Of a stretch of 64,000 bases of DNA, positions 11,951 through 58,330 are shown piece after piece. Positions within the stretch are counted from its first letter, which is position 1, and each line of letters begins with the position of its first letter. The notes under the pieces were generated by a model that saw only the letters and a program-made list of their open reading frames with translations, was not told where the DNA came from and did not search any database. The translations under genes were made by a program, and so were the position numbers. Source of the DNA: Trypanosoma brucei (taxonomy: Eukaryota); the NCBI GenBank assembly GCA_000002445.1, contig CP000071.1:1-64000 (forward strand), in the 5' to 3' direction.

Positions 11951-12526
11951 CCCATAGTGGCCCCCAAGCGGAAAACTGAAAAGATACATAAAAAACTCTT
12001 ACAAAATTTATTTTTTGGAATTTTCTTCGTGCCTTCGTGGGAGTTTGCCCCCACTGGCGCGGTCATCAGCCATCACCGTAGAGCCCTGAGATGCTATCGA
12101 TCTGGCGACTGTGGCAGAGTCTCCCTTTTTTTATTCATCCTAACACACTCTCTATAATTTTTGTTGTAGCTCCGAAGTTGAACGGAATACAGCAGATGGG
12201 GCGAGAAGCCTCCAACCCCGGACTCTCCCAAAGATGTCAATTAGCAATCCTTTTGTTTTGATTTTTGTTACTCGTTTATTATTCTTTCTCCCTCTTTCTG
12301 TTTTTGTTGCTTGTTGATTGCATACCCCCTCTGTCTCTGAGGGTGTCTGGACTATTCCTGCATCCGGTGCTTTTCCTGCTAGCTCCACACTCGGCAATGA
12401 GGGAAAAGTTGCAGAAGGGAGAGTCGGTTGTATGACTGATACCATAGGTGAGAACTTTACCTGCGGCCGGCTCCGTTCAACCGCAATGAGAAACTGGGTT
12501 ACCCTTTTAGAGAAACATACATCCTG

Positions 12527-12545
12527 CACACACACACACACACAC
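12527..12545. repeat. (CA)n microsatellite inside the ingi copy 1 3' region, at the point where copy 1 and copy 2 stop aligning
   Basis: CACACACACACACACACC. Confidence 0.7.
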
Positions 12546-13250
12546 CTTCTACCGCAAACCTGACACTTAACTCCTTCAAACCGGGACAGCTCATCAGGTG
12601 CAGCGACGTTTCTTCGCAGTCTCCGCGTTGGTTGGTAACAGCGCGCCCTACCTTCATACCGTGCATCTTCTTTTGATGTATGGTGAGGCCAGTTTTGCTA
12701 GCACACTGCCTTCCGCATGTCGGGCACACCAACATGGATGTGTTTGTATGCAGGGAATCAGTGGCACACAATTTTGTGCTTTTGCTGCATTTAAGCTCGA
12801 CTCCCTCACCTTTGTGGAAAGCCTTACAGTGTTGGATGAGGAAGTCCCTGCAACTGAGCACTTTTTGGTACACACCACACTGCACCTCGCCCTTCCCCGG
12901 GACGTCAACGTTTCCCTCACGGGCACGCTTACGAGGGAATTGCACCACCACCACGGTACCGTCCTCCGTCACTATGCTTTTATGTTTGAATTTCTTGTGT
13001 AGTGACAGGGAAGAACGTGTACCGAAGCTCGCCTCCCACAGGTCACATTGAAACGGCAGCTTCCGTGTATCCTGAGGGGCTGGCGCTGCTGGGACGCTAC
13101 CATCTCCTTGCAATGAGTCCTCGTTCTTTCGCCCCCTTTTCACGCGGAAACTACCGCTGCCTATGCCATGTATTGTTTGAAGGTGGTGTAATAGTCGGCC
13201 TGGCACTGCGAATTTGGAGGCACAGAGGGTACAATGAAGCACCTTCGGTT

Positions 13251-16200
13251 TCATCGGGACTCGTGTGCTCGATGGTAGAGAAACGATCGCCACCACTGGA
13301 GGGGGCTCCGGGGGATGTCCACTACAGGTGTTGCATCGCCGTATTTGATCCTCCGGAGGGCATAAGCTCGCACAAAGCCGTGTTTGTTTACCATGTGCGT
13401 TACAGCACTCGAGCGGCATTGGTATGTGGCATCACATTCCGTACATTTGGTTGGTTCGGAGGTTCTCTGAAGAGTGCGTATCGCAACAGGTTGGGCTGCT
13501 TGCATTGTTGGTCCTATCGCTGCATGTTGCGGGTTGCACCATCGGCACTGTGGAGGCACACTCGGGTTGATCTTTCGCAACATCCATCCATAGTGTCTTG
13601 AAGACCCAACCCGAAAGCGTGCCAGTGCCGTTTCTTCTTCCATCGTCAGTTCTTCTTTATGTTTTGTTGGAAAGTGGTTGCCCATGATACCAAACCTATG
13701 AGTGTTCTCATGGACTTCTTCTGACCTAAGCACTCGCTTCGCATAAGCAATGATGTCGGGGATCCATATGTCTCGCAACTGTGGTAAATCTGCGGCCTTT
13801 TTAGCCATTTCATCGCAAACCTCATTCCGTTTCATATCACAATGACCGAACATAAATTGAATTAGGATACGCACCTTCCTTCTCTGAACTTGAAGCAGAA
13901 GCCTCCATAGTCGTCTCAGAATTGGGTCCGTTACGGCTAGTGGACCTGTCTGCAGTGCTGTTAACATTGACAGCGAGTCATAGAAGGTGGACAACATGCT
14001 CGGTGTGCTTCTGCATGCCGGAAGCCATTTCAGCAGCCGTTGCAGTCCTATCTCTAATGCTACGCATTCCGCTCTGTAACTGCATGAGAGTTTCCCTGCT
14101 CCAGTTTTGGGTACACGAATCAGCGTGTTGTTTCTATAGAGCAGGGCAGCTGCCCCGGTCTTCTCACCGAGGGACACGGATCCATCAGTCCACAATTCGT
14201 AGTGCTCTCGCCGCGGTGGCTCCTTCCCCCTCCGTGCAAAATGCCGTTCAATCCACTTTTCGGAAGCCTCCCTTTTGACATCGTCAGGGTCATCAGCGCA
14301 CACAGGCTTTATCTGCGTGTGAAATATCTGTCGGCAGCTGTGGCGGAGCGTCGATGTCTCTAGCGGGTGCTCGCGTGGCTCAATGCGGAGGTGGGGGTAG
14401 GACCGCATGATGCGGGAATGTAGGGCTCTGACTGGGTGTTTGCTGTGGTATACTTCCTCAGCACTGCGCCGCAAACATCCGCCTCGTGACTCACACATCA
14501 GCATGAATTTAATGCTGCGCACAAGAGTGGCCGTCTTGAGTGGCAGGAGGTTTGCTTCCAGCAGAGAGTCCTCTTTGCGCGTCCCATGCGGTACGCCGGC
14601 TATGATTCGACTGGCCTTGTGTTGTGCTGCTGCAAGGAGGTCGCGACTTTGTTCCGAAGCGTCCCAGTACCATACCTCAATGCCATACATGGTGTGTGCC
14701 TGTACGAGTGCTAGATAAAAAGCTCTCAGTACTTGTCGTCTTGGCCCCCATGTAGGAGCTGAGATGGCTGCTATCTGCAGTAGTCAGAAGTCCATCTTGC
14801 GTCTCGTTTCAGCCGCATGTGTTGCCATCCCTTGCAGACACTGGAATGTTACTCCTAGAAGCTTCGGTGTCCTGTCAGCTCCAATTCTTTCGCCTTCCAG
14901 TTATAATGTAAGGGGGTGGCGCTCTGTACACCCGAAGAGTGTGCACTTCGTTTTTGCTACGTTGACAGACATGAAGTACTCTTTTGACCACTGTAACACC
15001 ACGTTTAGACCGCACTGTAGTGTGTGGTTGATGACTTCCCTCTCTGTGTGCCTGGCAAGTAGCGTTAGGTCGTCTGCAAAGAATCCGTGCTGCAGTAACG
15101 GCACTTCTGCAAGGCGTTGGCTCAACGAGTTCATGACAATAATGAACATGATTGGGCCAAGGACAGTTCCTTGTGGCACTCCTCGCTCAAATGTTCTGCT
15201 TCTGGAAAGCTTCTCCTTGAATCTCACTCTGCCAGTTCGGTTACTCAGAAATGATACGCACCACTTCACAATGTGGGGTGATACCTTCATTCTGTGCATT
15301 TCCCTCGCAATTTTGTCGTGGTCTACTGTATCGAATGCCTTCTCGTAGTCGACGAATACAGCACCCGTACGAGATTAGTGCGTGGGGCGGCAGAGAGCAG
15401 CGCGGACGTGCAGCAGCTGTTCGAGCGTTGAGCATCCGGGGCGAAAGCCTGATTGCTGCGGCGTCAGCTGGGACTCAACAGTGTCTCTAAGTCTCGGGGC
15501 AATTACGCGTTCCATGACTTTGTAGAGAGAGCTCATGAGCGTCACAGGCCTGTAAGAATCGAGGCCCTCCGCCTTTTTTCCGGCCTTCAGGATGGGGATG
15601 ATAACACCGGTTTTCCATGCAGGCGGCACGACTCCCGTTCGTAGGCTCTCATTGAATAGCCTCAGAACAACATTCAGCGCTGTTCTGCCGAGATGTTGCA
15701 GTACCTCCTTGTATAAGCAATCAGGTCCGGCTGCGGATCCACTCGGTAGCAGTTTGATCGATCTCCGTAGTTCAGCCATCGTGATGGGACTGAACTCACT
15801 CGCTATCGTCTTTATGGGTGCCGCTGGGTGTGAGTCGGGGTGCCTTCTTGCGCGGGACGAGTACAGTTTACTGAACCTCTCAGCTTGATGGTAGTCCGTG
15901 ATGGCCGCGTTATCAACAAGTACAGCCGGTGTGGTTAGTTGTCGTGGCGCATATACCTTCTTGACAATGTACCAACTGCAGCGGTCTGACACCGCAAGTC
16001 TGGAGCATAGCGTGCTCCATCTCTTCTTTGTGGTACGGTCCAGGATCTGCTTACGCGTGGCTACCAACTTTTCCCTTCGGTGGGAGGGTCCGCATCCAGC
16101 GATCTCTTCATCGAGTTTCGCGAGCTCAGGTGTCCAATGTGGTGGCGTTGCTCTGCAGCCACGGGGGACGGAGACCTTCGTCGCAATGCAGATGGCGGAG

Positions 16201-16990
16201 CTCAATTTCTGTTCCATGGTGTTGACGTTCTTCTCTCTACCAATTTTCCTGCAGAGCTCGTCAACCTTGAGACGGAAATTCCTCCAGTCAGCTTTTAGCC
16301 GTGCGTACATGGGCTTTCGAAGCCGCGGGCAACTCAGTGCATCTGTGTCGTCTCCAACGATAACGTCGAAAAATATGTGATGGTGATCGCTATCGGGAGA
16401 ATACAGCGATGTTCACGTGTACACTGTGCAATTCCTTGACAGTGTCACATCAGGGGTGGACTCCCCGTGGTGGCGCGCGTACCTGGTGCACTCACCAGTG
16501 TTGCAGACCAGAAACTGGTTGTCAATGCACCACTGTGTGAGGGGTTCACCCTTGGTATTTGGTGGGCTCGCGCGATCCCATGCCAACGCGTGTGCGTTAG
16601 CGTCTGCAGCGATGAGAGCTGGGCACCATCAGTCGTCAGAAGCGTATCTAGGTCAGTTGCCGTGAAGGTGTGTTCTGGTGGGATGTATGCCGACGTGACA
16701 GTCAGCGCCGTTCCACGTGCAAGGTGAATCGTTGCATGCACTTGTTCAATGCGACCAACAACGGCCATACCTGTCTCGAGTGGCAGGTCCTCCCTCACTA
16801 GTATTGATACACCACCTCCTTTGCAGTTACGAGCTATTCCGTGATGTTGGTAGCCAGCAACGCTAAAGCAAGCCGCCTCTCCAGGCGTCATCCTTGTCTC
16901 GCTCAACAGACAAAAGGCGATCCGCTCATCAACAAGGGTTTTGTGGAGTGCTAATCTCTTTTTTCTTGAGGTAGCCCGGCGCAGTTCCAC
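13251..16990 (-). pseudogene. ingi polyprotein ORF remnants: endonuclease 16445..16990, RT 14901..16310, RNaseH-like/Zn-finger 13251..14690, in different frames
   Basis: RT motifs QQSGFRPGCST, FADDLTLL. DGSVSLGEKTGAAALLYRNNTL is RNaseH-like. C2H2 fingers CTECDATYQCRSSAVTHMVNKH. Frameshifts between pieces. Confidence 0.8.
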
Positions 16991-17284
16991 TGCATCCCGC
17001 GCAACGACGGGCCGGGATTCTCTTCCACATCACCGGACCGCAGCATCTTAGTGCGGATGATACTGCTGATGGCACGCTGGCACGTGCCCAGGGACCGACA
17101 AATGAAAAACACTGTCCCAGCAAGATGCTGCTGATCCCTGTGCTGTATGATGCCGTAGCCGAAGCAAAGCAGTGTTCCCCATGAAAGAAACGCTGCTGGC
17201 TCTTGGCTTCCCCCAATGATACGGGGTGCTGGACCCTAGCACCACGTTGAGGTGGCGGGCACCGCCAGGAGGAAACACAGTGTT

Positions 17285-17780
17285 TTTTTTATTTTCCCTC
17301 GCGCAGATGTCAGCACCATGCAATCGCTCCACCCAATGGTAAGAAGTAAATGCTTTTAAGCACACCACGCCGCGATGACATGGTGTAGCGTGGGACTCAA
17401 CACTGGATACCGGCGTTCCTACCCACTAAACCCCCTTTTTTTGAGAATTGATACCAACTGGAGGCCGACCGCATGTGCGCTTGTCTAGGGGGGCGGTCTC
17501 CATTTGACGCCAGTTCGACTCCCCACACACACGTTGCGTTGGAACCATGTTTACCATATCCATCTGCCTCCCCGGACGGAGGTTGTATCAGGGATTTTGG
17601 TTCTCCCACCTGAGCAGAGTATTGGCCCGTGGAAAGCTAAGTAATGGTTCTCCCCACGGAGCGGTCGCACCATATCCGGTGTTGCAGCCGCTGTTTCGAT
17701 GGGACATTTGACTTCCCAGCCGATTTCTCTTCTTGTACTGGGCCCTGGCGCCACGTTGAGGCAGATCCATCCTTAGTGTA
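17285..17780 (-). mobile_element. Short (about 500 bp) RIME/SIDER-like retroposon in tandem, immediately 5' of ingi copy 1
   Basis: Second Pr77-like start on the - strand near 17765 (CCTCAACGTGGCGCCAGGGCCCAGTACA...). Element ends in an A-run (+ strand T8 at 17285-17292) directly abutting the ingi 5' end. Confidence 0.5.
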
Positions 17781-18906
17781 AGCTAAATACTTTCCGCCCA
17801 CGGGGATCGATGCCGGTACTATATGCGACGAGACCTCTACTTTACCACTAAACCAGGGGCCAATGAGCATATTTACAAACGTTAAACAAAATTTCAGTAA
17901 GTGCCTAAGCCAGCAGCACATTTAGCATTCCTCGAAGGAAGTGGCAGAACACGTCTAACCAATAAAGAAAAGCTCAAATTAAAGAACTGTTGAACCACAA
18001 CATAGCGTAGAAACAGTCACTCTTAGTGACCCTCATACACAGACTAATTGAAAAAGTCATTAGGTAGATAAATGTTTTTTTAAACAAAGGAAGGTGAAGG
18101 TTTTAAACATGCAAATGTTACGAACAATGTATTAGATTAAACACACTATGACTTATAGGACCCAAATTTAATCTATATTAAGATGTGCAAGGCGTAAAAC
18201 CTCAGGTATTTTTAATTAGAATTTATTAACCCCAACAGCTTTCTGTAGCGTTAAAGTTAAAAAGGGTGCAATAATAGTAAAGAAAATCGCGCAGACAGAG
18301 ACATGTAGGTTAAATCGTGAACGTAAAAGAAACAAAATTCTGAGAAATAAAGATTATGAAGGCAATAGCAGTTTTTTAGTCACAACTTACCACCTGAATA
18401 ACGTTGTAAATACCACAACAAGACTTAATAATCTAGAGACTAAGACGTCGATGAGAGAGATATAACCAAAAGATGCGACAAATGCAGATCCTTTCAATTA
18501 CCACCACCACCACAATATTTATTAGTTTTTTAAAACCCACAATCAGTAGTACCTACAACAAGGTTAATAGAGTATGATAACCAAGTATAGGCACTATAAG
18601 GCGCTATACTTCTATCGCGCGTCTTAATCAACATCTTACAAAATTACGGACCGCACCGATGTATCACCACAAAATGAAAAAACCAAAACCCAATACGCAG
18701 ATGGCATAGCAAGGGCAATACAGAAGCAACCTAACATCTAAAGGAGAAAAAACTAGTGTTGAAAAAAGACAAAAAAGATATCAAACCTTTTCGACCAACC
18801 CTACTTGTTTTACTTGAATAAAAAAGAGCAAGACAAGCCTAATTTTTCCGAGCCCAAACACCTGCACGACAACACTGAACGGCGGAGGAAATAAAACAAA
18901 AACAAC

Positions 18907-20445
18907 ATGCTGAGGAGGCTGCTGAACATAAGCCTAGCGCTGTTACTTCAACAACCAGCACAGGGAACAAACGACAAACGGCCACTTAAGCTTTCAGTAG
19001 CGACCTCGTTCTGCACATATTCAAACAAAGCAAAGAAGGCAGTAGCAAATATGGCAGACAAACTAAACGCCATGCACAAATCACTTAAAGCTGCAGAAAA
19101 AGCGGCGCTGCAACACCAACTTAGCCAAGCAGCACTTCCTCAGTACAAAGAGGCCGCAGCAACTATGACCATTTACGCCCAAGCAACCTATCTGGCCGCC
19201 CTAAGCGAGCTTCACGACTGGGCAGGCGAACAAACCAAAACAATAGGCCAAGCAATGTACGTCAGCGGCCGAATCGACGGACTGATGGAGGTCTTAAAAA
19301 GGCACATGTCAACGACCAAAGGCAGCAACAAAGGTTGCATAGCAAACGACGGAGACGCGACAGGAATAGGCAAGTTCGTGGAGAGCAAATGCGATTCAAA
19401 GGATACAACAGTTCTAAGTCCCGCAATTGAAGGCCTAGCAGCCGCATTAGACACAGATATAAGCAACGAAGGCGACCCAGAATCTAATTCGGGACGCGAC
19501 GACTGCCTGCTAAACAACAATCCGCACAGCAGCTATACAGCGGTGACGGTAGACATCAACCTTCTAAACGGCATCCTGCAGATACCCCAGGCCGGCGGCT
19601 TTACTACATCCACAAACGTCCGCGCGGCGACCAAAGCGAACAGTTTGTTCACTGCACTGAAAACGAACGGAGCCAAGCTCAAAATTGACTTAACGGCAAG
19701 TACGATCGACCCACCGACTGACCTCCTTGGGCTAAAGAACCTGCTTAAAACCGCAACCAGTCGACAAGCACTTAAAAGTGCAATTACGCAATACCGAAAC
19801 AAACCAACAGACGACAAGAGCATCAAAGACGACACAATCAAGGCGGCCTTCAGATTAACAGCTGACGACCAGGAGGGCAGGTATCTGAAGGCACTCAAAG
19901 CGGTAGAAAGAACAATTCCCACCACGCCAGGGGAGACCAAATCCACACCCCTGCTCGACACGATTTCCAAACAGCTTGAAGCTGCACTTACGGTGGAGAT
20001 AGGCGGAATATATAAAAAAAACAGTGGAACTAAAGAAGGAAACTGAGACGCTCAGACAAAATCAAGGCAAACAAGCATCGGAAGACACATGCAACAAAAT
20101 AAAAGTCGAACAAGCCTGCAATGCAACCGCAGCATGTAATTTTAATAAAACAGAAACTAAAGAAAGTAAAACGTTCAAATTGGATGCCAGAAAAGCCACA
20201 ACAAATGGAGTCTCTGTAACACAACCTCAAACAGGAGGGACAACAACTGTAAAATTCTCCGGCCATAGTAACAGACCAACTAGTAGTGAAAATAAAATAT
20301 TGTGAAATATAGCCCTGTTTGTGTATGGAGAAAAGAAGATGGTGAGGATGACAACGATACGAAAAAATGCCGCGATTCCAGCTTCCTTCTAAGCAAACAA
20401 TTAGCCATTACGGTTTCTGCTGCATTTATGGCTTTGCTTTTCTAA
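18907..20445 (+). pseudogene. VSG pseudogene with frameshifts. N-domain ORF 18907..20046, then C-terminal domain in other frames, GPI tail ...CRDSSFLLSKQLAITVSAAFMALLF
   Basis: Signal peptide MLRRLLNISLALLLQQPAQG. C-terminal-domain pieces 20024..20305 and 20306..20445 are in shifted frames. 3'UTR 16-mer follows. Confidence 0.8.
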
Positions 20446-20496
20446 AACAAAAATTTCCCCCCCCCCTCAATATTTCTTGCTAAAATTTTGCTATTT

Positions 20497-20512
20497 GATA
20501 TATTTTAACATC
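20497..20512 (+). promoter_or_regulatory. VSG 3'UTR conserved 16-mer (TGATATATTTTAACAT)
   Basis: One mismatch to TGATATATTTTAACAC. Preceded by a C-run and TTGCTAAAATTTTGCTA as in other units. Confidence 0.6.
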
Positions 20513-21689
20513 TTAAATCTTTTAGAAGTTATATTTTTGGGCTGATTGTGCGTCTGAAATTTTTTAACGACTAAAAATTCTTCTTTTTTTTGCTGCTGAA
20601 TTTTTTCAGTGTTGGATTTTTTAAATATTTGGTGTTGGTTCTGAAAGTTTTGTTCAGAATAGAATAATAAGGAAGGAAGAAAAAAGGCGGGTTATTCGGG
20701 CTAGGAATTTTATTTTTAAAAAATTTTTAAGTGATTCTGCAATTTTTTTTCTGCACACCATAACCTTTATTCACCAATTATATTGATTTCCTTTTTGTTT
20801 CTGTCTTAAACCATAATTTTCAACAACTGCAAATTTAAGCTCTGCGTTCTGCGCCTCTTTTTTTGTTAATTTTTTAAATTTTTAAATTTTCTTAGTGATG
20901 CAGCTCTTTTTTCACATTAAGGCTAGCGCTCATTCATATGTCAGGTACCCTCACTTAAATTTTTCTCATACTCATTTCATATTCACATCGTTACAATTCT
21001 ACCCTTGTTGCTTTCGTGAATTTCAGCTCTTCATTTTGCGCGACACGCGGCTTCAAATTTTTTAAAGAAACTATGGCGCTACGCACGCCATCAATTTTTT
21101 TAGTGTTGGGGAGTGGAAGTTTCGCTGCGCGAAACCATTTGCTCTCAAAAGGAAAATTAAGGAAATATAATAATTGGGGGGGGCCGATCGTCAAAATCAG
21201 TAACAAAGTCGCCGGCACACAATCTTTTACTTGAAACTGACGGCTAAAACAGCTCAACATTCATGGGTGCAGGTTTTTTTTACGAATTTTTTAACTAATT
21301 TTTTACAACACGTTTTTAATTTGTTTAAAGTGATGCACCGGCTCTTTTTTGATGCTGACACTACCCCTTATACACCTAGAAGCATATTTGGCTTTTGCTT
21401 GTGTTTATCCTAAGGTAGCTTTATTTTTATTCCCATATGAATATAAATTTTTTAATCTTTTTATCACCATTAATTTTTTATTTTTTTCATTGTTTTTAAA
21501 AATCAATTATTTTTTTTTTGATTTTTTATTTTAATTTTTTACAACATGTTTTTAATCTTTATTAAGTAATACCCCTGTTTCGTTTACAAAGAAGCTATGC
21601 ATTTATCAGGAAACGCAGGTTTTGAGATACCACGTACTGGAAATAGAACACAAAAAAACGCATCACTAACAAAAGTAACCAAAACAGAC

Positions 21690-22031
21690 GAAACTTTCTC
21701 AACGAAAGGAACAGGAGATGACTGCAAACTCCCATGCAAAGAGGTAGAATAGGAAAGTGGCAAAAAGAAGTGCAAATCGGATAAAGATAAGGCTAAAAAG
21801 GAAACAGCAAACCAAGCAGGAAGAGGAGGGACAAGCGCCGGGGCAGATTGCAGTAAATACGACACACAAGAGAAATGTGAGAAAGCCAATGAAGGTCAAA
21901 CCACCAAAGTTTGCGGATGGAAGGGCGAAAATAGTGACAGATCTGACAAAGAAGATTACAACTGCGGCTCTTTCAGTGTTCTTATAAATAAGAATCTTAC
22001 TCTGATGGATACTACTTTTTTTATTTGGTAG
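21690..22031 (+). pseudogene. Orphan VSG C-terminal-domain fragment with GPI-signal-like tail
   Basis: ...DCKLPCKEVE...CEKANEGQTTKVCGWKGENSDRSDKEDYNCGSFSVLINKNLTLMDTTFF. No N-terminal domain upstream. Confidence 0.55.
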
Positions 22032-48055: not shown

Positions 48056-48096
48056 AAATTTTAGGTTTTTCCCCCTCTTTAAAAAACTTTGCTATT

Positions 48097-48330: not shown

Positions 48331-48454
48331 ACAAAATAGAAGCACACAAAAAATAGCATGGGTGAAATGTGAGTAACTTATGTGAAGAAATGATGAGGAT
48401 TATTGCTAAAAACTTGTAGGAAAAAGAGATGGAGATATAATATGTGCAGTTTTT

Positions 48455-51400
48455 TCATTATACGGTTACCTTCACGAATATCAAATGTTCTATACATACA
48501 TCCTGTGAGGCTACTTCTTTAGTTGATATGTTTCCTATTCTCACGCTCCGCCATTCACTCCCTCCTGTGGGGCCTGGATAACAGCGTCTTGTTGAGGAAC
48601 ACGCTTTTGAATATTGTCTTCCACCATTTGAGGAAAATATCACTTGCTGTTATCCGAATGTGTTGCATGACACCAGTGAATATTTAGAATGATGGTGACC
48701 TTTCTCTCTTGATTCGCAGTCGGGTTATCAATTTGTTCGTGTCTATGGTAAGAACCGAATTTGCCGTTGGAAAGAAGACTGCCCTTAAGAAGATCACCAG
48801 CTTAACACTGAAGTATATATCTTCCTTTTTCGGAATGACTACTACATTCTAAGACCTGAGTTTACTCAAAGATGGACACTGCAACAGGTGAGCCGATGTT
48901 TCTTTGCATTCCTTTCTTACCTTATTTCATCTATCAGAGCCACGTGCCTGCCTGTGTGCTGCTTGAATTTGCAATGTTAGATATTGCTTGTGTGCGCATA
49001 CCTTCTAGCAGTGTGGGAATTGGTGCTAGAGAGAGGCCAGTGGCGTGATTTAAAGGGATTCTTTTTCACACTCTCTCTTCACAGTGATTGCATTTTTGTG
49101 GTGTGTTCTGGTATGCCATACTAGTGTATACCATGACATGTAGGTGTTCTCACACCTTCCACATGCAAACTCTCTACGAGGGTTCTCTGTATGCCCTCAA
49201 GTCCTTATGCCGTTTGTGTTTCAGCTCCTCTCTCTGACCGCATATATTTTCTCGTCTGCTGGAGTGTCATGCTCGGTCTCTCTTTTTCTCTTTCTTGTCA
49301 TGGAGTTCAAGTTTTGTGTGTGTGACGAGTCTGAGTTGAGAAGTGCTCTATTTATTGAGTGAGGCTTCAATCCATTTTTTGTAGTGGTTTCTAGTTGTGT
49401 ATCTCCACTGTGGGGGGTGTTCACCTTCTTACTTTTTTAGTCCGAGTTCTCGATACTCACGCACTTTTGTGTGTATCAGTCACGTCTTGCTCTTGAAACA
49501 CCTCTTGCATTTGTGGAAAACATAAAGTAGTGGCTCATTGTCATCCTCATTTTTGTTTTCACCACTATTGTCTTCCGTTACTTGCAACTTTGACATCTTC
49601 TTTGTCATTTTACTTAACTTTAACAGTTGGGGTATGAGTAAGATATCATGCCCGGGGTGTTTTATATTCATATGGCGTAACATCCAGTTGTGGTGATATT
49701 CTTTACCGCATATCTTACATGTTTCTCTCCGACACTATTTATTGTAGTGGTGCACGTGGTTCCCCTTCACTCTGCTTCGAATTGTACTTATGTCTGTTGA
49801 GCCAGGTTTTGCTTTTATACACCTGTTTGCAGCTAAGACATTTGTATGCTTGTGGTGCTTCCCATTGTTCATCTTTACTGCTATCATCCTGTATTTCCGT
49901 TTGTTGTGTCACTTCGGTTTGCTTTTCAGGATGTTTCAGGCGCATATGCCTATCCAACCAGCCATACGTGACATGCTGCTTCGGAAGCCATTGACACTTG
50001 TGGAGAGTAGGTAACGACTGTTCTTCTCGTTTCCTCTTTTGTCGCTCTGTCCATACTAGTGGAGTTGTCAAAGTGTATTGTGGCACATGTTGTTGCAGTA
50101 GTCCCTTTCTGTCGAATACTTTACAACATACGTGACATCGATAGACAATCTCACATGCCTGTTCTGCTCTCTGAGCAATCGTTAATACAGCTAGCGTATA
50201 TTGACGAACACACTGATGTATTTTCATCATGTGAAGAACTTCCACTTACCGTCTTGCACATACGATATTGCAAACTGGGAATATGATATGGTAATTCTGT
50301 ATTGTAGCTATTGCCACCTTGCGTTCCTCAGTTTCTTCTATCTTTAGAGTGTTTTGAGTTTGTGCAGTGTAATTTCTGAGATTGTTCCCCGTGTACTTTG
50401 TACACCATCTGCGCTTCAGTTATTCACCTGTTCATGTGATCACCCTATGTGTCCATCCAAAATGTTTTGAAGTCCCTGTTTTAAATTGAGCCAACAGTGA
50501 CTCATCATACATGTCTAGCGCCTTCATTTTGTATGTCTGTTTTACATGGTTTAGTAAAGCGCTGCGGTGTGTGTTTTTGTGCCGGTCTTCCACAAATTCG
50601 CGTCGTGTCTGAATACATAATTGGCGCGTTATACCTGTGACAATGTTGGTGATCTGTGAACTACAAATTGACGGCATATGTTTTTCTTTGTTTGGAAGCT
50701 CGTCTGTTTTGGCATTTCTCGGGATGCCGCAATTAAAAAACACAAACTGAAACGACATGTCTACTCTCAGTTTCATGAAGTGTATGATCAAATTCTATAT
50801 GCGTCGTAGTATGCAATCTGTCACTACCGCAGGACCGTTTTAAGTGCAATTAACAAAGATAAAGAGTCTGTGAATATTGCCACTTTCGTTTTTCTACTCT
50901 CGTTGATCTTTATTACTGACTTAAGTTTCATAAGTCTTGCCTCCATGGCTACACACTAGGCTCTGTATCTGCATGCTAACCTGCCTGCTTTTTTCTTTAC
51001 TTTTACTGCATTACCTCGTCTAGGGTATATTATCGCGCCGGCACCAGAGGATTCTTCCAGTATCACTGACCCATCCGCCCACACTTTATAATCGTAGTCT
51101 TTGAATCTACGTACCCTTTGTATTGTGTGCCTTTTCTTTTCTCTGTCACAAGCGTTAGAATGGAGACCACCTGGTGTTGTGGTGTTGAAGTATGGTCTCC
51201 TCGCCAGTTGCCATATGCTTGCCGTGTGTGGCTTCTCCGGTCTGCCCACTTCCTCATACGGGTGTGACACACTCTGCAGGCACGTGTGCATCGGATAATT
51301 AGGTGGTAACATTTTCCCACTGTATCAGCTGATGCCTTACCTTTCGCTCTACTTTTTAAATATTATTCTATTGCTCTTCTGTGAGCAATATTATCTCTTG

Positions 51401-53440
51401 TGAGGGCTGGACTCCTTCATGGCATCTTGCGAATTTGTATACTTTGAAATACCAGCGATAACATGTGCCTCCTGTGCTTGTACTTGTTCAAGCTTCTCCT
51501 TGTTTGATGGAGAAGCTTTGAACAAACATGCTGCGATACCATAGCACACCTTTCCCTGGATTAAGGTTAAGTAAAATGTTCGGACGCTTTCTTTACTCGC
51601 TTTCCATTCACGTGGTGCAACAGCCCTTAGTTTTATTAATCTCATAATTCCTTTTGTTTGTAAGGTACATGTGCTATTTGCTTACTCAGCCCTTTGTGTG
51701 GCTGTATTCTCATCCCAAGGAGTCTGGAATTTCTCTTCTTTTTTTACCTATGCTCTTCCAGAATTAGGTGCAATGAGTCTCTGTCTCTCACCTCAAAGAG
51801 TGTGAATTCCATCTTTGTTTTTGCAGACACCTCCATATAGTGCCCTGTTGACCAGGTCGCTATACAATCCAATCCTGTTTGCAGCGTCTGCCGAATAGCT
51901 TCTCGGTCAGTGTTAGAGCATACTATCGTGAAGTCGCCTGCGAAGAAGCAGTGTTTAATGGCTACAATGGCATTTAATTTCGCGCTTAGGGAGTCCATTG
52001 CAATAGTGAATGGCAACGGCGTCAAAACGGAAACTTGTGTAACACCACATGTGAGTTGTATTTTCTTTGAGAGGGTGTTGTTTATTCGTACTAATGCAGT
52101 CCGTCCCTCCAGAAAATTTGCAAACCACGAAATGAGGTGCATGTCTGCCTCATATCTTATTAATGCATCTATTATGCACATGCAATCCATATAGTCAAAT
52201 GACCTCGCATAATCTATGAATAACACAGCAGTTTTCTCTCCTGCTACTCTATATTTCACTAAGTCTGTGAGTGCCATTAGAGCGTCTAACAACATATATC
52301 TGCCCGAACGAAAGCCACATTGCTGAGGTTTCATCTTACACTCTACTTTGTCTCGCATTTATTGCGCTACGATCCTCTCCATGAGATTACAGAGGATGTT
52401 AGTGAGTGTAATGGGTCAAAACGATGACATACACTTGGCCACTTTGTTGAGGTTGAGTAGTGTGACAATAACACCATGATTTCACTTCTCCGGCACCCGG
52501 TGTCTCTGTAGCCTACAGTTGAAGAGCTTGAGAACACATATTTCTTTATACGGTGTCCTAATTGCTTCAACTGTTCACAATGTATACATTCCTTATCGGT
52601 GTAACTTCCTGAATATAATTCCTTCAGTGCTGTCTCAAGTTCTGCCTCGTTATTGGTGCGAATTCTCCGCTCGCACGGTATGGTATACTCATGGGAGGAG
52701 AATCTGGTGATTTCGTCGACTGCTCTCTATATATCTGTGCTAGTTTATTAGTTTGCTGTCTGAGTGTTAGAGAATGGTCATTCAAAACCAGAACTGGAGA
52801 TGACAGTGGCCTCGGTTCATATATGGATTTAACTAAATTCTAACTTTTTGTATCAGTCACTGACATATTCGACACATTTTCCTTCCAATGTTGTAGGGAC
52901 GTTTCAGCGAGAACCTTCCTTCTCTTGTATGTAAGGACATCTCTCTGTGCTTCTCATTTGTGCACTCCCTTATTCTCGTGTCTATTCCAGTCAGTTGTCG
53001 TGTCCAGAACGGTGGAGATACATCCTTACCTTTCGGTATTGTTTTATTTGACGCTTTGAAAATTCGTTTAGTTACTGCCTCATTCATGGCATTCATGTTC
53101 TTTCTCGATTTCCTTAATTTTTTCAACATCATTATACCACACACTTTTCGAAACTACCGCCAATTTGCTTTGTTCCAAACATAAAACGCCCTTTGTGGCG
53201 TTGTAATTGCGACAATTTCCACACCAATTCCAATACACACCTCAAACTCCATCCAGCAGTGGTCACAACCTGGACTGAGGTTTGCCTCCCATCTTGTGAC
53301 TTCGCAGTCTCTGTACATCGTAATGTCGGACGACGACCTAATTGCCGTTTGTGGAATTCCTCTCGTTGGTGTACCATCATTTTGCATTTCTGACATCGTT
53401 TTGTAGACACCAGTCTATAACGCAGTATTCCGCTGCATCA
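48455..53440 (-). mobile_element. Divergent ingi-related non-LTR retroposon (DIRE-like), about 5 kb, degenerate
   Basis: ORF fragments on the - strand match the ingi domain order but are strongly diverged. RT: 51744..52358 (QQCGFRSGRYM...LFIDYARSFD...FFAGDFTIV). RNaseH-like: 50956..51312 (YKVWADGSVILEESSGAGAIIY...RLACRYRAE). FKTGTSKHFGWTHRV at 50432..50791 corresponds to ingi FRVGSSRHYGWMLRK. C2H2 fingers 49480..50245. Poly(T) on + near 48450. Confidence 0.65.
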
Positions 53441-53496
53441 TTTGACCGAAGCGGGTCAAATAACTCATGATCTGCGTTACTGTCTGATCCTATTAC

Positions 53497-56400
53497 TAGT
53501 GGTCCCTGGCGATGCCGGCCACCTCAACGTGGTGCCAGGGTCCAGTACACCGTATCATTGGGTGAAGCCAAGAGCCAGCAGCGTTCCTTTCATGGGGAAC
53601 ACTGCTTTGCTCCGGCTACGGCATAATACAGCACAGGGATCAGCAGCATCTTGCTGGGACAGTGTTCTTCATTTGTCGGTCCCTGGGCACGTGCCAGCGT
53701 GCCATCAGCAGTATCATCCGCACTAAGATGCTGCGGTCCGGTGATGTGGAAGAGAATCCCGGCCCGTCGTTTCCCGAGATGCAGTGGAACTGCGCCGGGC
53801 TATCTCAAGGAAAGAGATTAGCACTCCACAAAACCCTTGTTGATGAGCGGATCGCCTTTTGTCTGTTGAGCGAGAGACAAGGATGACGCCTGGAGAGGAA
53901 GCTTGTTTAGCGTTGCTGGCTACCAACATCACGGAATAGCTCGTAACTGCAAAGGAGGTGGTGTATCAATACTAGTGAGGGAGGACCTGCCAGTCGAGAC
54001 AGGTATGGCCGTTGTTGGTCGCATTGAACAAGTGCATGCAACAATTCACCTTGCACGTGGAACGGCGCTGACTGTCACGTCGGCATACATCCCACCAAAA
54101 CACACCTTCACGACAAGTGACCTAGATACGCTTCTGACGACTGACGGTGCCCAGCTCTCATCGCTGCAGACGCTAACGCACACGCGTTGGCATGGGATCG
54201 CGCGAGCCCACCAAATACCAAGGGTGAAACCCTCACACAGTGGTGCATTGACAACCAGTTTCTGGTCTCCAACACTGGTGAGTGCACCAGGTACGCGCGC
54301 CACCACGGGGAGTCCAGCCCTGATGTGACACTGTCAAGGAATTGCACAGTGTACACGTGAACATCGCTGTATTCTCCCGATAGCGATCACCATCACATAT
54401 TTTTCGACGTTATCGTTGGAGAAGACACAGATGCACTGAGTTGCCCGCGGCTTCGAAAGCCCATGTACGCATGGCTAAAAGCTAACTGGAGGAATTTCCG
54501 TCTCAAGGTTGACGAGCTCTGCAGGAAAATTGGTAGAGAGAAGAACGTCAACACCCTGGAACAGAAATTGAGCTCCGCCATCTGCATTGCGACGAAGGTC
54601 TCCGTCCCCCGTGGCTGCAGAGCAACGCCACCACATTGGACACCTGAGCTCGCGAAACTCGATGAAGAGATCGCTGGATGCGGACCCTCCCACCGAAGGG
54701 AAAAGTTGGTAGCCACGCGTAAGCAGATCCTGGACCGTACCACAAAGAAGAGATGGAGCACGCTATGCTCCAGACTTGCGGTGTCAGACCGCTGCAGTTG
54801 GTACATTGTCAAGAAGGTATATGCGCCACGACAACTAACCACACCGGCTGTACTTGTTGATAACGCGGCCATCACGGACTACCATCAAGCTGAGAGGTTC
54901 AGTAAACTGTACTCGTCCCGCGCAAGAAGGCACCCCGACTCACACCCAGCGGCACCCATAAAGACGATAGCGAGTGAGTTCAGTCCCATCACGATGGCTG
55001 AACTACGGAGATCGATCAAACTGCTACCGAGTGGATCCGCAGCCGGACCTGATTGCTTATACAAGGAGGCACTGCAACATCTCGGCAGAACAGCGCTGAA
55101 TGTTGTTCTGAGGCTATTCAATGAGAGCCTACGAACGGGAGTCGTGCCGCCTGCATGGAAAACCGGTGTTATCATCCCCATCCTGAAGGCCGGAAAAAAG
55201 GCGGAGGGCCTCGATTCTTACAGGCCTGTGACGCTCACGAGCTGTCTCTGCAAAGTCATGGAGCGCATAATTGCAGCAAAGCGTAGAGACACTGTTGAGT
55301 CCCAGCTGACGCCGCAGCAATCAGGTTTCCGCCCCGGATGCTCAACGCTCGAACAGCTGCTGCACGTCCGCGCTGCTCTCTGCCGCCCCACGCACTAATC
55401 TCGTACGGGTGCTGTATTCGTCGACTACGAGAAGGCATTCGATACAGTAGACCACGACAAAATTGCGAGGGAAATGCACAGAATGAAGGTATCACCCCAC
55501 ATTGTGAAGTGGTGCGTATCATTTCTGAGTAACCGAACTGGCAGAGTGAGATTCAAGGAGAAGCTTTTCAGAAGCAGAACATTTGAGCGAGGAGTGCCAC
55601 AAGGAACTGTCCTTGGCCCAATCATGTTCATTATTATCATGAACTCGTTGAGCCAGTTCCTTGCAGAAGTGCCGTTACTGCAGCACGGATTCTTTGCAGA
55701 CGACCTAACGCTACTTGCCAGGCACACAGAGAGGGATGTCATCAACCACACACTACAGTGCGGTCTAAACGTGGTGTTACAGTGGTCAAAAGAGTACTTC
55801 ATATCTGTCAACGTAGCAAAAACGAAGTGCACACTCTTCGGGTGTACAGAGTGCCACCCCCTTACATTACAACTGGAAGGCGAAAGAATTGGAGCTGACA
55901 GGACACCGAAGCTTCTAGGAGTAACATTCCAGTGTCTGCAAGGGATGGCAACACATGCGGCTGAAACGAGACGCAAGATGGACTTCTGACTACTGCAGAT
56001 AGCAGCCATCTCAGCTCCTACATGGGGGCCAAGACGACAAGTACTGAGAGCCTTTTATCTAGCACTCGTACAGGCACATACCATGTATGGCATTGAGGTA
56101 TGGTACTGGGACGCTTCGGAACGAAGTCACGACCTCCTTGCATCAGCACAACATAAAGCCAGTCGCATCATAGCTGGCATACCGCATGGGACGCAAAGAG
56201 GATTCTATGCCGGAAGCAAACCTCCTGCTACTCAAGACGACCACTCTTGTGCGCAGCATGAAATTCATGCCGATGTGTGAGTCACGAGGCGGATGTTTGT
56301 GCCGCAGTGCTGAAGAAGTATACCACAGCAAACACCCACTCAGAGCCCTACATTCCCGCATCATGCGGTCCTACCCCTACATCTGCATTGAGCCACGCGA

Positions 56401-58330
56401 GCACCCACTAGAGACATCGACGCTCCGCCACAGTTGCCGACAGATATTTCACACGCAGATAAAGCCTGTGTGCGCTGATGACCCTGACGATGTCAAAAGG
56501 GAGGCTTCCGAAAAGTGGATTGAACGGCATTTTGCACGGATGGGGAAGGAGCCACCGCGGCGAGAGCACTACGAATTGTGGACTGATGGATCCGTGTCCC
56601 TCGGTGAGAAGACCGGGGCAGCTGCCCTGCTCTATAGAAACAACACGCTGATTTGTGCACCAAAGACCGGAGCAGGGGAACTCTCATGCAGTTACAGAGC
56701 GGAATGCGTAGCATTAGAGATAGGACTGTAACGGCTGCTGAAATGGCTTCCGGCATGCAGAAGCACACCGAGCATGTTGTCCACCTTCTATGACTCGCTG
56801 TCAATGTTAACAGCACTGCAGACAGGTCCACTAGCCGTAACGGACCCAATTCTGAGACGACTATGGAGGCTTCTGCTTCAAGTTCAGAGAAGGAAGGTGC
56901 GTATCCTAATTCAATTTGTGTTTGGCCATTGTGGCGTGAAACGGAATGAGGTTTGCGATGAAATGGCTAAAAAGGCCGCAGATTTACCACAGTTGCGAGA
57001 CATATGGATCCCCGACATCATTGCTTATGCGAAGCGAGTGCTTAGGTCAAAAGAAGTCCATGAGAACACTCATAGGTTTGGTATCATGGGCAACCACTTT
57101 CCAACAAAACATAAAGAAGAACTGACGATGGAAGAAGAAACGGCACTGGCACGCTTTCGGGTTGGGTCTTCAAGACACTATGGATGGATGTTGCGAAAGA
57201 TCAACCCGAGTGTGCCCCCGCAGTGTCGATGGTGTAACCCGCAACGTGCAGCGATAGGGCCAACAATACGAACACAAACAGCCCCACCTATTGCGATACG
57301 CACTCTTCAGAGAACCTCCAAACCGACCAAATGTACGGAATGTGATGCCACATACCAATGCCGCTCGAGTGCTGTAACGCACATGGTAAACAAACATGAC
57401 TTTGTGCGAGCTTATGCCCTCCGGAGGATCAAATACGGCGATGCAACACCTGTAGTGGACATCCCCCCGGAGCCCCCTCCAGTGGTGGCGATCGTTCCTC
57501 TACCATCGAGCACACGAGTCCCGATGAAACCGAAGGTGCTTCATTGTACCCTCTGTGCCTCCAAATTCGCAGTGCCAGGCCGACTATTACACCACCTTAG
57601 AACAATACATGGCATAGGCAGCGGTAGTTTCCGCGTGAAAAGGGGACGAGAGAACGAAGACTCAGTGCAAGGAGATGGTAGAGCCCCAGCAGCGCCAGCC
57701 CCTCAGGATACACGGAAGCTGCCGTTTCAATGTGACCTGTGGGAGGCGAGCTTCGGTACACGTTCTTCCCTGTCACTACACAAGAAATTCAAACATAAAA
57801 GCATAGTGACGGAGGACGGTACCGTGGTGGTGGTGCAATTCCCTCGTAAGCGTGCCCGTGAGGGAAACGTTGACGTCCCGGGGAAGGGCGAGGTGCAGTG
57901 TAGTGTGTGTACCAAAAAGTGCTCAGTTGCAGGGACTTCCTCATCCAACACTGTAAGGCTTTCCGCAAAGGTGAGGAAGTCGAGCTTAAATGCAGCAAAA
58001 GCACAAAATTGTGTGCCACTGATTCCCTGCATACAAACACATCCATGTTGGTGTGCCCGACATGCGGAAGGCAGTGTGCTAGCAAAACTGGCCTCACCAT
58101 ACATCAAAAGAAGATGCACGGTATGAAGGTAGGGCGCGCTGTTACCAGCCAACGCGGCGACTGCGAAGAAATGTTGCTGCACCTGATGAGCTGTCCCGGT
58201 TTGAAGGAGTTAAGTGTCAGGTTTGCGGTAGAAGGTGTGTGTCTGTGTGTGGCGGCATGGTTAAATTATTGGGTCGCATCAGGCCCATATTGTGTCATCA
58301 CAAATATTATTCTACCATTAAAAAAAAATA
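53497..58330 (+). mobile_element. ingi non-LTR retrotransposon, copy 2 (about 4.8 kb), degenerate ORF. 3' end differs from copy 1
   Basis: Starts GGTCCCTGGCGATGCCGGCCACCTCAACGTGGTGCCAGGGTCCAGTACACCGTATCATTGGGTGAAGCCAAGAGCCAGCAGCG (Pr77 signature). ORF pieces 53903..54328 (endonuclease), 54463..55989 (RT), 56186..56731 (RNaseH-like), 56774..58126 (Zn fingers). A9 at 58321-58329. Confidence 0.9.
53737..53760 (+). other. 2A-like self-processing peptide motif DVEENPGP at the N-terminus of the ingi ORF
   Basis: Translation ...IIRTKMLRSGDVEENPGPSFPEMQW. The same motif is present in copy 1 on the - strand at about 17010-17040. Confidence 0.7.

What the first reader, a model, noticed from the sequence alone, without database searches (positions are those of the whole stretch)
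12127..58330. Two ingi copies in inverted orientation bracket about 36 kb holding nine VSG loci plus orphan fragments
ingi copy 1 (- strand, 12127-17275) and copy 2 (+ strand, 53497-58330) are about 95% identical by eye over about 4.8 kb. They are inverted relative to each other. Homologous recombination between them would invert the intervening 36-kb block (VSGs at 18907, 24041, 29452, 33550, 36916, 41073, 43850, 46608, the orphan C-terminal-domain fragments, the telomeric tract and the GT gene). All VSGs currently point the same way. No inversion is visible in this window, but the configuration is a standing substrate for inversion or palindrome formation. The two copies also have different 3' ends.
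Basis: seen in the sequence. Interest (0 to 1): 0.5.

Follow-up and report, generated by a model that had tools for sequence, protein, structure and literature searches.

The report
Inverted dead ingi pair in VSG array
Two closely related, already-dead copies of the trypanosome retrotransposon ingi sit in opposite orientation around 36 kb of silent surface-antigen (VSG) genes; they could recombine and may have exchanged a short patch, but nothing shows the block was ever flipped, and this arrangement is ordinary for Trypanosoma brucei.

Summary
Copy 1 (12126-17270, - strand) and copy 2 (53504-58251, + strand) align over 4.75 kb. They lie 36.2 kb apart with their 5' ends facing inward.

Both are Tbingi non-LTR retrotransposons. 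They have the conserved 5' signature, then endonuclease, RT, RNase H and zinc finger. They are 92-95% identical to ingi copies of T. b. gambiense and T. equiperdum.

They are sister copies of an element that was already dead. They share three nonsense codons and 58 substitutions absent from three outgroup copies, and each has private frameshifts.

Copy 1 is full length with an A-tail. Copy 2 loses homology at an internal (GT)n and ends in about 78 nt of unrelated sequence. Neither has the 12-bp target-site duplication.

The pair is a competent recombination substrate, with 14 perfect blocks of at least 100 bp. One 513-nt block is longer than chance allows (P about 0.001) and suggests gene conversion.

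No inversion is evident. Every VSG piece, inside and outside the block, is on the + strand.

Synteny in other strains could not be tested. Ingi in VSG arrays and ingi-mediated rearrangement are already published, so this is a known kind of feature of low interest.

The parts
12126..17270 (-). ingi copy 1: full-length (5145 nt) degenerate Tbingi. The 5' signature starts at 17270 and an A7 tail ends at 12126. The last ~400 nt (12126-12528) are the canonical ingi 3' part that copy 2 lacks.
   Evidence: The 3' part matches T. equiperdum ingi at 91%. The endonuclease profile hits 16448-17029 and 16416-16628.
53504..58251 (+). ingi copy 2, the part homologous to copy 1 (4748 nt). Its 5' end is complete (CCCTGGCG). 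Homology stops at the end of an internal (GT)n run.
58252..58329 (+). Non-homologous 78-nt tail of copy 2, ending in A9T. It has no match in copy 1, elsewhere in the window, or in L001.
54557..55069 (+). 513-nt tract of copy 2 that is perfectly identical to copy 1 (15704-16216). It is a candidate gene-conversion tract.
   Evidence: none of 20,000 uniform placements of the differences reached this length; 19 of 20,000 rate-weighted placements reached it; the tract differs from the three outgroups at 14-17 of 513 sites.
15704..16216 (-). The partner of the 513-nt identical tract, in copy 1.
   Evidence: Coordinates derived from the ungapped arm I1 (the two coordinates sum to 70773).
54358..54360 (+). 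Shared nonsense codon TGA. It is TGG in T. equiperdum copy eqA and in the T. b. gambiense copy; eqB has a gap in this codon. The copy 1 partner is 16413-16415.
55396..55398 (+). Shared nonsense codon TAA (CAA in all three outgroups). The copy 1 partner is 15375-15377.
55987..55989 (+). Shared nonsense codon TGA (AGA in all three outgroups). The copy 1 partner is 14784-14786.
17271..17282 (-). 12-nt spacer CACTGTGTTTCC between the A-run of an upstream short retroposon-like sequence and the 5' end of copy 1. This is the geometry of a tandem retroposon arrangement.
   Evidence: The 12-bp TSD and tandem arrangements are described in PMC3820030. The same 12-mer is not found after copy 1's A-tail.
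17283..17780 (-). Short (~500 nt) retroposon-like sequence in tandem with copy 1. It has a partial 5' signature core at 17735-17771 and an A-run ending at 17283. It may be a SIDER-like element; its identity is not established.
   Evidence: (nhmmer E about 1e-3), (28 nt at 93% to the copy 2 signature).
49742..53502 (-). Degenerate ingi-related element (DIRE-like), 30-47% aa identity to ingi, with many frameshifts. It carries the endonuclease C-terminal part, RT, an RNase H region and zinc fingers. Its 5' half is missing, and the remnant ends 1 nt from copy 2's 5' end.
   Evidence: RVT_1; profile positions 171-285 at 53523-53157; zinc fingers at 49742-50245.
17271..53503 (.). The bracketed 36.2-kb block. 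It holds eight + strand VSG loci, two orphan VSG C-terminal fragments, a telomere-like tract, a glycosyltransferase-like ORF, the short retroposon-like sequence and the DIRE-like remnant.

Best explanation
These are two sister copies of the Trypanosoma brucei non-LTR retrotransposon ingi (Tbingi). Both are dead. They lie head-to-head, with their 5' ends facing inward, 36.2 kb apart in a silent VSG array that runs uniformly on the + strand.

Shown:
- Family identity of both copies.
- 97.4% identity over 4.75 kb.
- Three nonsense codons and 58 substitutions that unite the pair against three ingi copies from other genomes. Their last common ancestor was therefore already non-functional.
- Independent later decay: 45 and 58 private substitutions, private frameshifts, and one private stop codon.
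- Homology that starts exactly at the canonical 5' terminus in both copies, with unrelated flanks.
- Absence of 12-bp target-site duplications.
- Loss of the canonical 3' 400 nt in copy 2.

Inferred as the most likely history:
1. Each copy arrived by its own retrotransposition from one defective lineage, mobilised in trans by the machinery of active ingi copies, as RIME is.
2. Copy 2 landed in, or next to, an older ingi-related remnant on the opposite strand. It later lost its 3' end, its 3' TSD and the neighbouring DNA in a deletion anchored at its internal (GT)n run.
3. At least one gene-conversion event then erased all differences over 513 nt.

Functionally the pair does nothing as a designed system. 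It is a dispersed inverted repeat. Homologous recombination between the arms gives gene conversion if resolved without crossover. It inverts the 36-kb block if resolved with crossover. Break-induced or fold-back replication at the arms could give palindromic products.

The present arrangement is the non-inverted one.
For: - Repeat and identity.
- Domains: RVT_1, RNase_H, zf-C2H2; endonuclease profile, E 1e-55 to 1e-19 on both copies.
- Naming and relatives: 'Tbingi protein'; 92-95% DNA identity to T. equiperdum and T. b. gambiense ingi copies, against 97.4% within the pair.
- Shared TGA/TAA/TGA stops absent from the outgroups, and 58 shared derived sites.
- Private indels.
- Exact 5' termini with unrelated flanks.
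- No other ingi or RIME fragment in the window.
- HR competence: 14 perfect blocks of at least 100 bp, 2481 bp in total, against a minimal processing segment of about 100 bp (PMC1904282).
- 513-nt identical tract: 0 of 20,000 uniform placements and 19 of 20,000 rate-weighted placements reached it.
- No inversion: every VSG-like piece in the window is on the + strand, both outside the block (4285-4695, 7234-8883, 62482-63999) and inside it.
- The (GGGTTA)n tract lies downstream of the + strand VSG at 24041-25522 in the orientation expected of a telomeric VSG.
- Published background: PMC2854126, PMC3553974, PMC3820030.
Against: - Neither copy has the 12-bp TSD expected of a young ingi insertion. 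The best matches are 7/12 and 8/12 with slack, reached by 25% and 7% of shuffles. At about 1% private divergence a TSD should still be nearly intact, so simple insertion plus point decay is not the whole story. For copy 1, which has both canonical ends, I have no specific explanation.
- The deletion proposed for copy 2 is inferred only from what is missing. Endonuclease profile positions 1-170 of the older element occur nowhere in the window.
- Uniform VSG orientation argues against a net inversion by parsimony only, because T. brucei arrays can contain strand switches.
- The identical tract lies in a segment that is also about half as variable as average among outgroups.
- The sister relationship rests on only four outside ingi copies.
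Confidence: 0.78

Rival explanations
1. Concerted evolution. Two unrelated, independently inserted ingi copies were made alike by one or more long gene-conversion events between them, or from a third copy. This transferred the nonsense codons. The sisterhood would then reflect conversion, not common descent of the insertions.
For: - The shared stops and 58 shared sites would be copied by conversion.
- Homology confined to the element, starting at the exact 5' terminus, is what conversion between pre-existing elements must give.
- The 513-nt identical tract suggests conversion does act here.
Against: - The remaining 2.6% divergence is spread along the whole element, so a near-full-length conversion would have to be old.
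- Conversion does not explain the missing TSDs either.
- It cannot be separated from descent from a common dead master with four outgroups.
Confidence: 0.3
2. DNA-level inverted duplication. Copy 2 arose from copy 1, or the reverse, by an inverted segmental duplication or a template-switch repair event, not by retrotransposition.
For: - There are no TSDs on either copy.
- The inactivating mutations are shared.
- Copy 2 lacks a canonical 3' end.
Against: - Similarity begins at the first base of the canonical element in both copies, and the flanks are unrelated on both sides. A DNA duplication would not be expected to stop exactly at the retroposon's 5' terminus.
- No other inverted similarity exists in the window.
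Confidence: 0.1
3. An inversion, or another ingi-ingi crossover, has already happened. The present copies would then be chimeras, which is why TSDs do not match and why the older element next to copy 2 has lost its 5' half.
For: - TSDs are absent on both copies.
- The 5' half of the DIRE-like element is missing from the other side of copy 2.
Against: - The cross-wise TSD test (5' flank of one copy against 3' flank of the other) is at chance: 6-7 of 12, reached by about 60% of shuffles.
- The missing half of the DIRE-like element is not next to copy 1, nor anywhere else in the window, on either strand.
- VSGs inside and outside the block share one strand.
- A crossover with an ingi outside the window cannot be excluded.
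Confidence: 0.08
4. Assembly or polishing artefact. Short-read polishing or consensus calling across multi-copy ingi sequence made the two copies look more alike than they are, and created the 513-nt identical tract.
For: Ingi is a multi-copy family, and repeat copies are the usual victims of mis-mapped polishing reads. I have no read data.
Against: The copies keep 125 substitutions and several private indels spread over the rest of their length. They also have distinct junctions with unique flanks. The existence and orientation of the two copies is therefore not in doubt. Only the fine pattern could be affected.
Confidence: 0.08

Closest known systems
Tbingi / TbRIME non-LTR retrotransposons of Trypanosoma brucei (ingi clade; PMC3820030, PMC1874656)
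   Same: - The conserved 5' signature starting CCCTGGCG.
- The endonuclease-RT-RNase H-zinc finger order.
- About 5.2 kb in length with an A-tail (copy 1).
- 92-95% DNA identity to ingi copies of T. b. gambiense and T. equiperdum.
- A tandem arrangement with another retroposon, separated by 12 nt.
- Location inside a VSG array.
   Different: - Both copies are non-autonomous, with three shared stops and private frameshifts.
- No 12-bp TSD on either copy.
- Copy 2 lacks the canonical 3' 400 nt, which is the RIME 3' half.
Ingi/RIME-mediated chromosomal rearrangements described in the T. b. brucei / T. b. gambiense genome comparison (PMC2854126)
   Same: The proposed mechanism is the same: homologous recombination between dispersed ingi or RIME copies, producing indels and rearrangements, often beside VSG or ESAG sequence.
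   Different: Here only the substrate is seen. No rearranged product is observed.
Repeat-mediated rearrangement in Leishmania: inverted repeats give linear amplicons and direct repeats give circles (PMC4028189)
   Same: A trypanosomatid genome in which low-copy dispersed repeats bracket gene blocks and serve as platforms for stochastic rearrangement. Inverted pairs give inverted-duplication products.
   Different: It is a different genus and repeat family. In Leishmania the products were detected by sensitive PCR and are selectable. Nothing of the kind has been tested for this locus, and T. brucei is not known to rely on such amplification.
DIRE (degenerate ingi/L1Tc-related elements; PMC3820030, PMC1874656)
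   Same: The - strand remnant at 49.7-53.5 kb has the ingi-like domain order, is heavily frameshifted, and is only 30-47% identical to ingi at the protein level.
   Different: Its 5' half, including the 5' signature, is absent, so the defining signature could not be checked.

Membership tests
Tbingi (ingi-clade non-LTR retrotransposon) | Conserved ~79-nt 5' signature at the element's first bases | tested here: met
   Both copies start CCCTGGCG/TCCTGGCG...CCACCTCAACGTGGTGC... and align from base 1 with the T. equiperdum ingi copy. An nhmmer profile of the first 93 nt finds exactly these two sites at E 1e-30. The comparison was with other ingi copies, not with the published consensus itself.
Tbingi (ingi-clade non-LTR retrotransposon) | Coding order: AP endonuclease - reverse transcriptase - RNase H - C2H2 zinc finger | tested here: met
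   Pfam RVT_1, RNase_H and zf-C2H2 in that order. The endonuclease was recovered with a profile built from 53 relatives, because Pfam's own models miss it.
Tbingi (ingi-clade non-LTR retrotransposon) | High nucleotide identity to recognised ingi copies | tested here: met
   91.8-95.0% to ingi copies in T. equiperdum CM010677.1 and T. b. gambiense FN554965.1 / FN554970.1. The closest named proteins are 'Tbingi protein' and 'reverse transcriptase [T. brucei equiperdum]'.
Tbingi (ingi-clade non-LTR retrotransposon) | Full length of about 5.2 kb ending in a poly(A)/A-rich tail | tested here: met
   This feature is met by copy 1 only: 5145 nt, A7 at 12126-12132. Copy 2 does not meet it: homology ends at 58251 and is followed by 78 unrelated nt ending in A9T.
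Tbingi (ingi-clade non-LTR retrotransposon) | 12-bp target-site duplication flanking the insertion (PMC3820030) | tested here: not met
   Adjacent 12-mers match at 0-2 of 12. The best matches with 8-nt slack are 7/12 (copy 1) and 8/12 (copy 2), reached by 25% and 7% of shuffles. This bears on the history of the insertions, not on family identity.
Autonomous (active) ingi | Single uninterrupted long ORF | tested here: not met
   There are three shared nonsense codons, one private stop in copy 2, and private frameshifts in each copy. The longest ORFs are 479 and 450 aa.
Recombination-competent inverted repeat in T. brucei | Uninterrupted identity at or above the minimal efficient processing segment (~100 bp, PMC1904282) | tested here: met
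   14 perfect blocks of 101-513 bp, 2481 bp in total. Overall divergence of 2.6% is expected to lower efficiency: 2.8-fold at 1% and about 33-fold at 5% on 450-bp substrates (PMC1904282).
Recombination-competent inverted repeat in T. brucei | An observed recombination product (inversion, or both orientations present in the population) | not testable with these tools
   There are no reads and no second assembly of this locus. Exact-product look-ups and homologue searches found no orthologous contig. Indirect tests (VSG strand, cross-wise TSDs, location of the DIRE halves) give no sign of an inversion.
[quoted passage not shown] | Ingi-like domain order, heavily degenerate, distant from active ingi | tested here: met
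   Endonuclease C-terminal part, RT, RNase H region and zinc fingers on the - strand in many frames, at 30-47% aa identity to ingi.
[quoted passage not shown] | 79-nt 5' signature | tested here: not met
   There is no signature hit beyond the two ingi copies and the short element at 17735-17771. The remnant's 5' half is missing.
Silent subtelomeric-type VSG array | Serial VSG genes and pseudogenes with N-terminal (A or B type) and C-terminal domains on one strand | tested here: met
   Pfam VSG_B, Trypan_glycop and Trypan_glycop_C hits on 12 loci or pieces, all on the + strand. The closest protein is T. brucei 'VSG 1125.1397' at 98% identity.

The most novel reading that the evidence does not exclude
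The 513-nt perfectly identical tract is the footprint of a recent non-crossover recombination event between these two dead, inverted ingi copies, 36 kb apart inside a silent VSG array. That would mean array-embedded ingi pairs really do pair and exchange sequence in vivo. It would make them working 'handles' for array-scale restructuring (inversion, fold-back or palindrome formation) of the VSG archive, and not just theoretical substrates.
Probability: 0.3. Interest if true: 0.35.

Novelty: already known. Interest (0 to 1): 0.15.

Why it matters
It matters little on its own. Ingi elements within VSG arrays, and ingi/RIME-mediated rearrangement, are established features of T. brucei genomes (PMC3553974, PMC2854126). 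This pair is one more instance.

Its modest value is as a well-defined test locus. It offers two sister copies with known private markers, unique flanks on all four sides, and a candidate conversion tract. With long reads or junction PCR, one could measure how often inverted ingi pairs in silent arrays convert or invert. That bears on how the VSG archive is reshuffled.

Tried and rejected
1. Placing the window in public assemblies to test synteny.
- Exact-product look-ups for three VSGs, the DIRE ORF and two copy-specific ingi ORFs all failed.
- The homologue search with the intact VSG found only VSG-catalogue entries without contigs: 98% to an EATRO 1125 entry and 75% to a Lister 427 entry.
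- The DIRE RT found one 60% hit without a contig.
- Synteny therefore remains untested.

2. My idea that copy 2 sits inside an older element whose two halves still flank it, which would have proved that no inversion occurred.
- The left half is real and abuts copy 2.
- The 'DADVVKLQQ' motif I read on the right flank is not supported.
- A sensitive clade profile and full-length relatives find nothing at 58.3-61.5 kb or anywhere else. Pfam finds nothing either.
- I rejected the idea.

3. TSDs, both own-flank and cross-wise. None is significant.

4. tRNA-like strings seen by eye upstream of copy 1 (17795-17860 and 17380-17436). ARAGORN and Rfam find nothing, so I dropped them.

5. Pfam endonuclease models on ingi itself gave no hit, so Pfam cannot be used for this domain in this clade.

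6. Clustering of private substitutions as a sign of conversion from third copies. There are only small local clusters, probably alignment effects near indels, so this is not informative.

7. Searching for other ingi or RIME fragments in the window as alternative partners. There are none.

Full report

Yes. An inverted-repeat scan finds six collinear ungapped segments joining 12529-17269 to 53505-58251. Gapped blastn merges them into one 4752-column alignment at 97.08%, with 123 mismatches and 11 gap openings.

A MAFFT alignment of the core gives 4610 matches, 125 substitutions (90 transitions, 35 transversions) and 17 gap columns. That is 97.36% at aligned bases and a JC distance of 0.027.

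No similarity extends into the flanks. No other ingi or RIME fragment exists in the window.

**2. Anatomy of the two copies**

Read in the element's own orientation, both copies start with the same terminus:
- Copy 1: TCCTGGCGGTGCC... at 17270.
- Copy 2: CCCTGGCGATGCC... at 53504.

This is also where a T. equiperdum ingi copy starts.

Copy 1 runs 5145 nt to an A7 run ending at 12126. Its last 400 nt match the 3' part of T. equiperdum ingi copies at 91%.

Copy 2 follows copy 1 up to the end of an internal (GT)n run at 58251. It then continues with 78 nt that match nothing in copy 1, in the rest of the window, or in L001, and it ends in A9T at 58329. The remark about 'different 3' ends' is therefore correct. 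Copy 2 lacks the canonical 3' part.

The 5' ends face each other across 36,233 nt.

**3. Family identity**

- Broken reading frames in both copies carry RVT_1, RNase_H and a C2H2 zinc finger, in that order.
- Pfam misses the endonuclease even in these copies.
- A profile built from 53 relatives, found by an exhaustive HMMER search, recovers the endonuclease in both copies at E 1e-55 to 1e-19.
- The nearest database proteins are called 'Tbingi protein' or 'reverse transcriptase [T. brucei equiperdum]'.
- The neighbouring intact VSG is 98% identical to a T. brucei EATRO 1125 VSG entry, so the window comes from a T. brucei-group genome.

**4. How the two copies are related**

I fetched four other ingi copies:
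- Two from T. equiperdum CM010677.1.
- Two from T. b. gambiense DAL972, FN554965.1 and FN554970.1.

These are 91.8-95.0% identical to the window copies. The window copies are 97.36% identical to each other.

Copies 1 and 2 share 58 substitutions against three agreeing outgroups. They also share three nonsense codons where the outgroups have sense codons (ORF boundaries):

| Position in copy 2 | Window pair | Outgroups |
|---|---|---|
| 54358-54360 | TGA | TGG (eqA, gam3; eqB has a gap) |
| 55396-55398 | TAA | CAA (all three) |
| 55987-55989 | TGA | AGA (all three) |

Their last common ancestor was therefore already a dead element.

Each copy has since decayed on its own:
- 45 private substitutions in copy 1 and 58 in copy 2.
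- One private stop in copy 2, CAA>TAA at 56729.
- Private frameshifts in copy 1: +2 at 16964, +1 at 16868, -1 at 13315.
- Private indels in copy 2: frameshifts of +2 at 53872, -2 at 56191 and +2 at 57903, plus an in-frame +6 at 57268.

**5. How they got there**

Homology starts at the first base of the canonical element in both copies, and the flanks are unrelated. This argues for two insertions, not a DNA-level inverted duplication.

A dead ingi can be mobilised in trans, as RIME is (PMC3820030). This step is inference.

Against a simple story, neither copy has the 12-bp TSD that Tbingi insertions make (PMC3820030):
- Adjacent 12-mers match at 0-2 of 12 positions.
- The best matches with 8 nt of slack are 7/12 for copy 1 and 8/12 for copy 2.
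- Those scores are reached by 25% and 7% of shuffles.

For copy 2 the loss of the 3' end would have taken one TSD copy with it. For copy 1 I have no specific explanation.

Upstream of copy 1 there is a ~500-nt retroposon-like sequence:
- It has a partial 5' signature at 17735-17771 (nhmmer E about 1e-3).
- It has an A-run ending at 17283.
- Exactly 12 nt (CACTGTGTTTCC) separate that A-run from copy 1.

This is the tandem geometry described for this clade (PMC3820030). However, the 12-mer does not recur after copy 1's tail.

**6. A third, older element, and a test that failed**

A - strand RT ORF at 51744-52358 led to a degenerate ingi-related element spanning about 49.7-53.5 kb:
- It is 30-47% identical to ingi at the protein level.
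- It has zinc fingers at 49742-50245.
- Endonuclease profile positions 171-285 lie at 53523-53157.
- It ends 1 nt from copy 2's 5' terminus.

I hoped its 5' half would lie on the other side of copy 2, which would have proved that no inversion had occurred since insertion. It does not. The profile and full-length relatives find nothing at 58.3-61.5 kb, next to copy 1, or anywhere else on either strand.

The most economical reading is one deletion, anchored at copy 2's (GT)n. It would have removed copy 2's 3' end, its TSD and the older element's 5' half. A crossover with an ingi outside the window cannot be excluded.

**7. Has the block been inverted?**

There is no sign of it.
- Sensitive searches with the window's own VSGs and fetched VSG proteins place every VSG-like piece on the + strand (Pfam). 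This holds left of copy 1 (4285-4695, 7234-8883), inside the block (ten loci or fragments from 18907 to 47846), and right of copy 2 (62482-63999).
- The telomere-like (GGGTTA)n tract at 26195-26790 follows the + strand VSG at 24041-25522 in the orientation expected of a telomeric VSG.
- The cross-wise TSD comparison that an inversion would predict is at chance.

This is parsimony, not proof.

**8. Could it recombine, and has it?**

The pair holds 14 perfect identity blocks of 101-513 bp, 2481 bp in all.

In T. brucei the RAD51-type pathway has a minimal efficient processing segment of about 100 bp. Recombination falls 2.8-fold at 1% divergence and about 33-fold at 5% on 450-bp substrates (PMC1904282). 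The pair is therefore a usable but penalised substrate.

The longest identical block, 513 nt (copy 2 54557-55069, copy 1 15704-16216), is too long for the overall difference density:
- 0 of 20,000 uniform placements of the differences reached it.
- 19 of 20,000 placements reached it after weighting by local variability among outgroups.
- The same tract differs from each outgroup at 14-17 sites.

A gene-conversion event is the likeliest cause. A polishing artefact cannot be excluded without reads.

**9. Comparison with what is known**

[quoted passage not shown] Presence/absence differences of ingi between T. b. brucei and T. b. gambiense are documented (PMC2854126).
- In Leishmania, dispersed inverted repeats give linear amplicons and direct repeats give circles (PMC4028189). 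That is the nearest worked-out analogue of what such a pair can do.

The finding is a correctly read, ordinary instance of a known situation.

**10. Verdict**

- Observation: confirmed, with corrected numbers.
- Interpretation: supported as a statement of potential.
- Novelty: already known.
- Interest: low (0.15).
- The one mildly interesting residue is the candidate conversion tract, together with the absence of TSDs. Both hint that these array-embedded copies take part in recombination.

Noticed in passing
It is cut off at endonuclease profile position ~171, exactly 1 nt from the 5' end of ingi copy 2. Its 5' half is nowhere in the window.
   Followed up: yes
window 17283-17780 (- strand), with the spacer at 17271-17282: A ~500-nt short retroposon-like sequence with a partial 5' signature and a terminal A-run. 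It sits in tandem with copy 1, separated by exactly 12 nt (CACTGTGTTTCC). It may be a SIDER-type element; its identity is not established.
   Followed up: partly
window 58330-60750: The right flank of copy 2 has a - strand-like AT skew (down to -0.42) and tiling stop-free stretches of 60-103 codons on the - strand. It has no Pfam, retroelement or VSG similarity and remains unidentified.
   Followed up: partly
window 26195-26790: An interstitial, degenerate telomere-repeat tract, (GGGTTA)n with about 92 units and a 193-nt higher-order period. It lies about 670 nt downstream of an apparently intact 493-aa VSG (24041-25522), and an orphan VSG C-terminal fragment follows at 27615-27770. It looks like a captured former telomeric VSG locus.
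   Followed up: no
window 32272-33690 (+ strand): A single 472-aa ORF joins a galactosyltransferase-like segment (Pfam Galactosyl_T, residues 166-208) to the first ~40 residues of a B-type VSG domain. The VSG then continues in other frames to 35075.
   Followed up: no
window 10391-12154 (+ strand): A run of 87-102-codon stop-free pieces with VSG-like composition (AT skew +0.34) leads right up to copy 1's A-tail. Neither Pfam nor VSG queries recognise them. They may be a very diverged gene remnant into which copy 1 inserted.
   Followed up: partly
L001 8119-20057 (T. equiperdum CM010677.1 844593-865855): Two ingi copies, 96.8% identical to each other, lie tail-to-tail in inverted orientation in a core-gene region, with rearranged ingi fragments between them (12897-15661). 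The locus contains a 100-N gap, so this could be a scaffolding artefact. If it is real, it is an example of ingi-ingi rearrangement.
   Followed up: no
L002 589-8006 (T. b. gambiense FN554970.1): An ingi 5' fragment of only about 1.1 kb (94.8% to the window copies) lies about 4.7 kb from a B-type VSG gene. This is another ingi-VSG association, in a different subspecies.
   Followed up: no
window 45639-45763: A two-unit tandem repeat of 66 nt containing (TAA)n and a GT-rich core, upstream of the VSG at 46608. It resembles the 70-bp repeats that precede VSGs.
   Followed up: no
window 44-1327 and 3247-4284 (+ strand): ORFs of 262, 164 and 345 aa with VSG-like composition have no Pfam hit. Only a C-terminal-domain piece at 4285-4695 is recognisably VSG.
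   Followed up: partly
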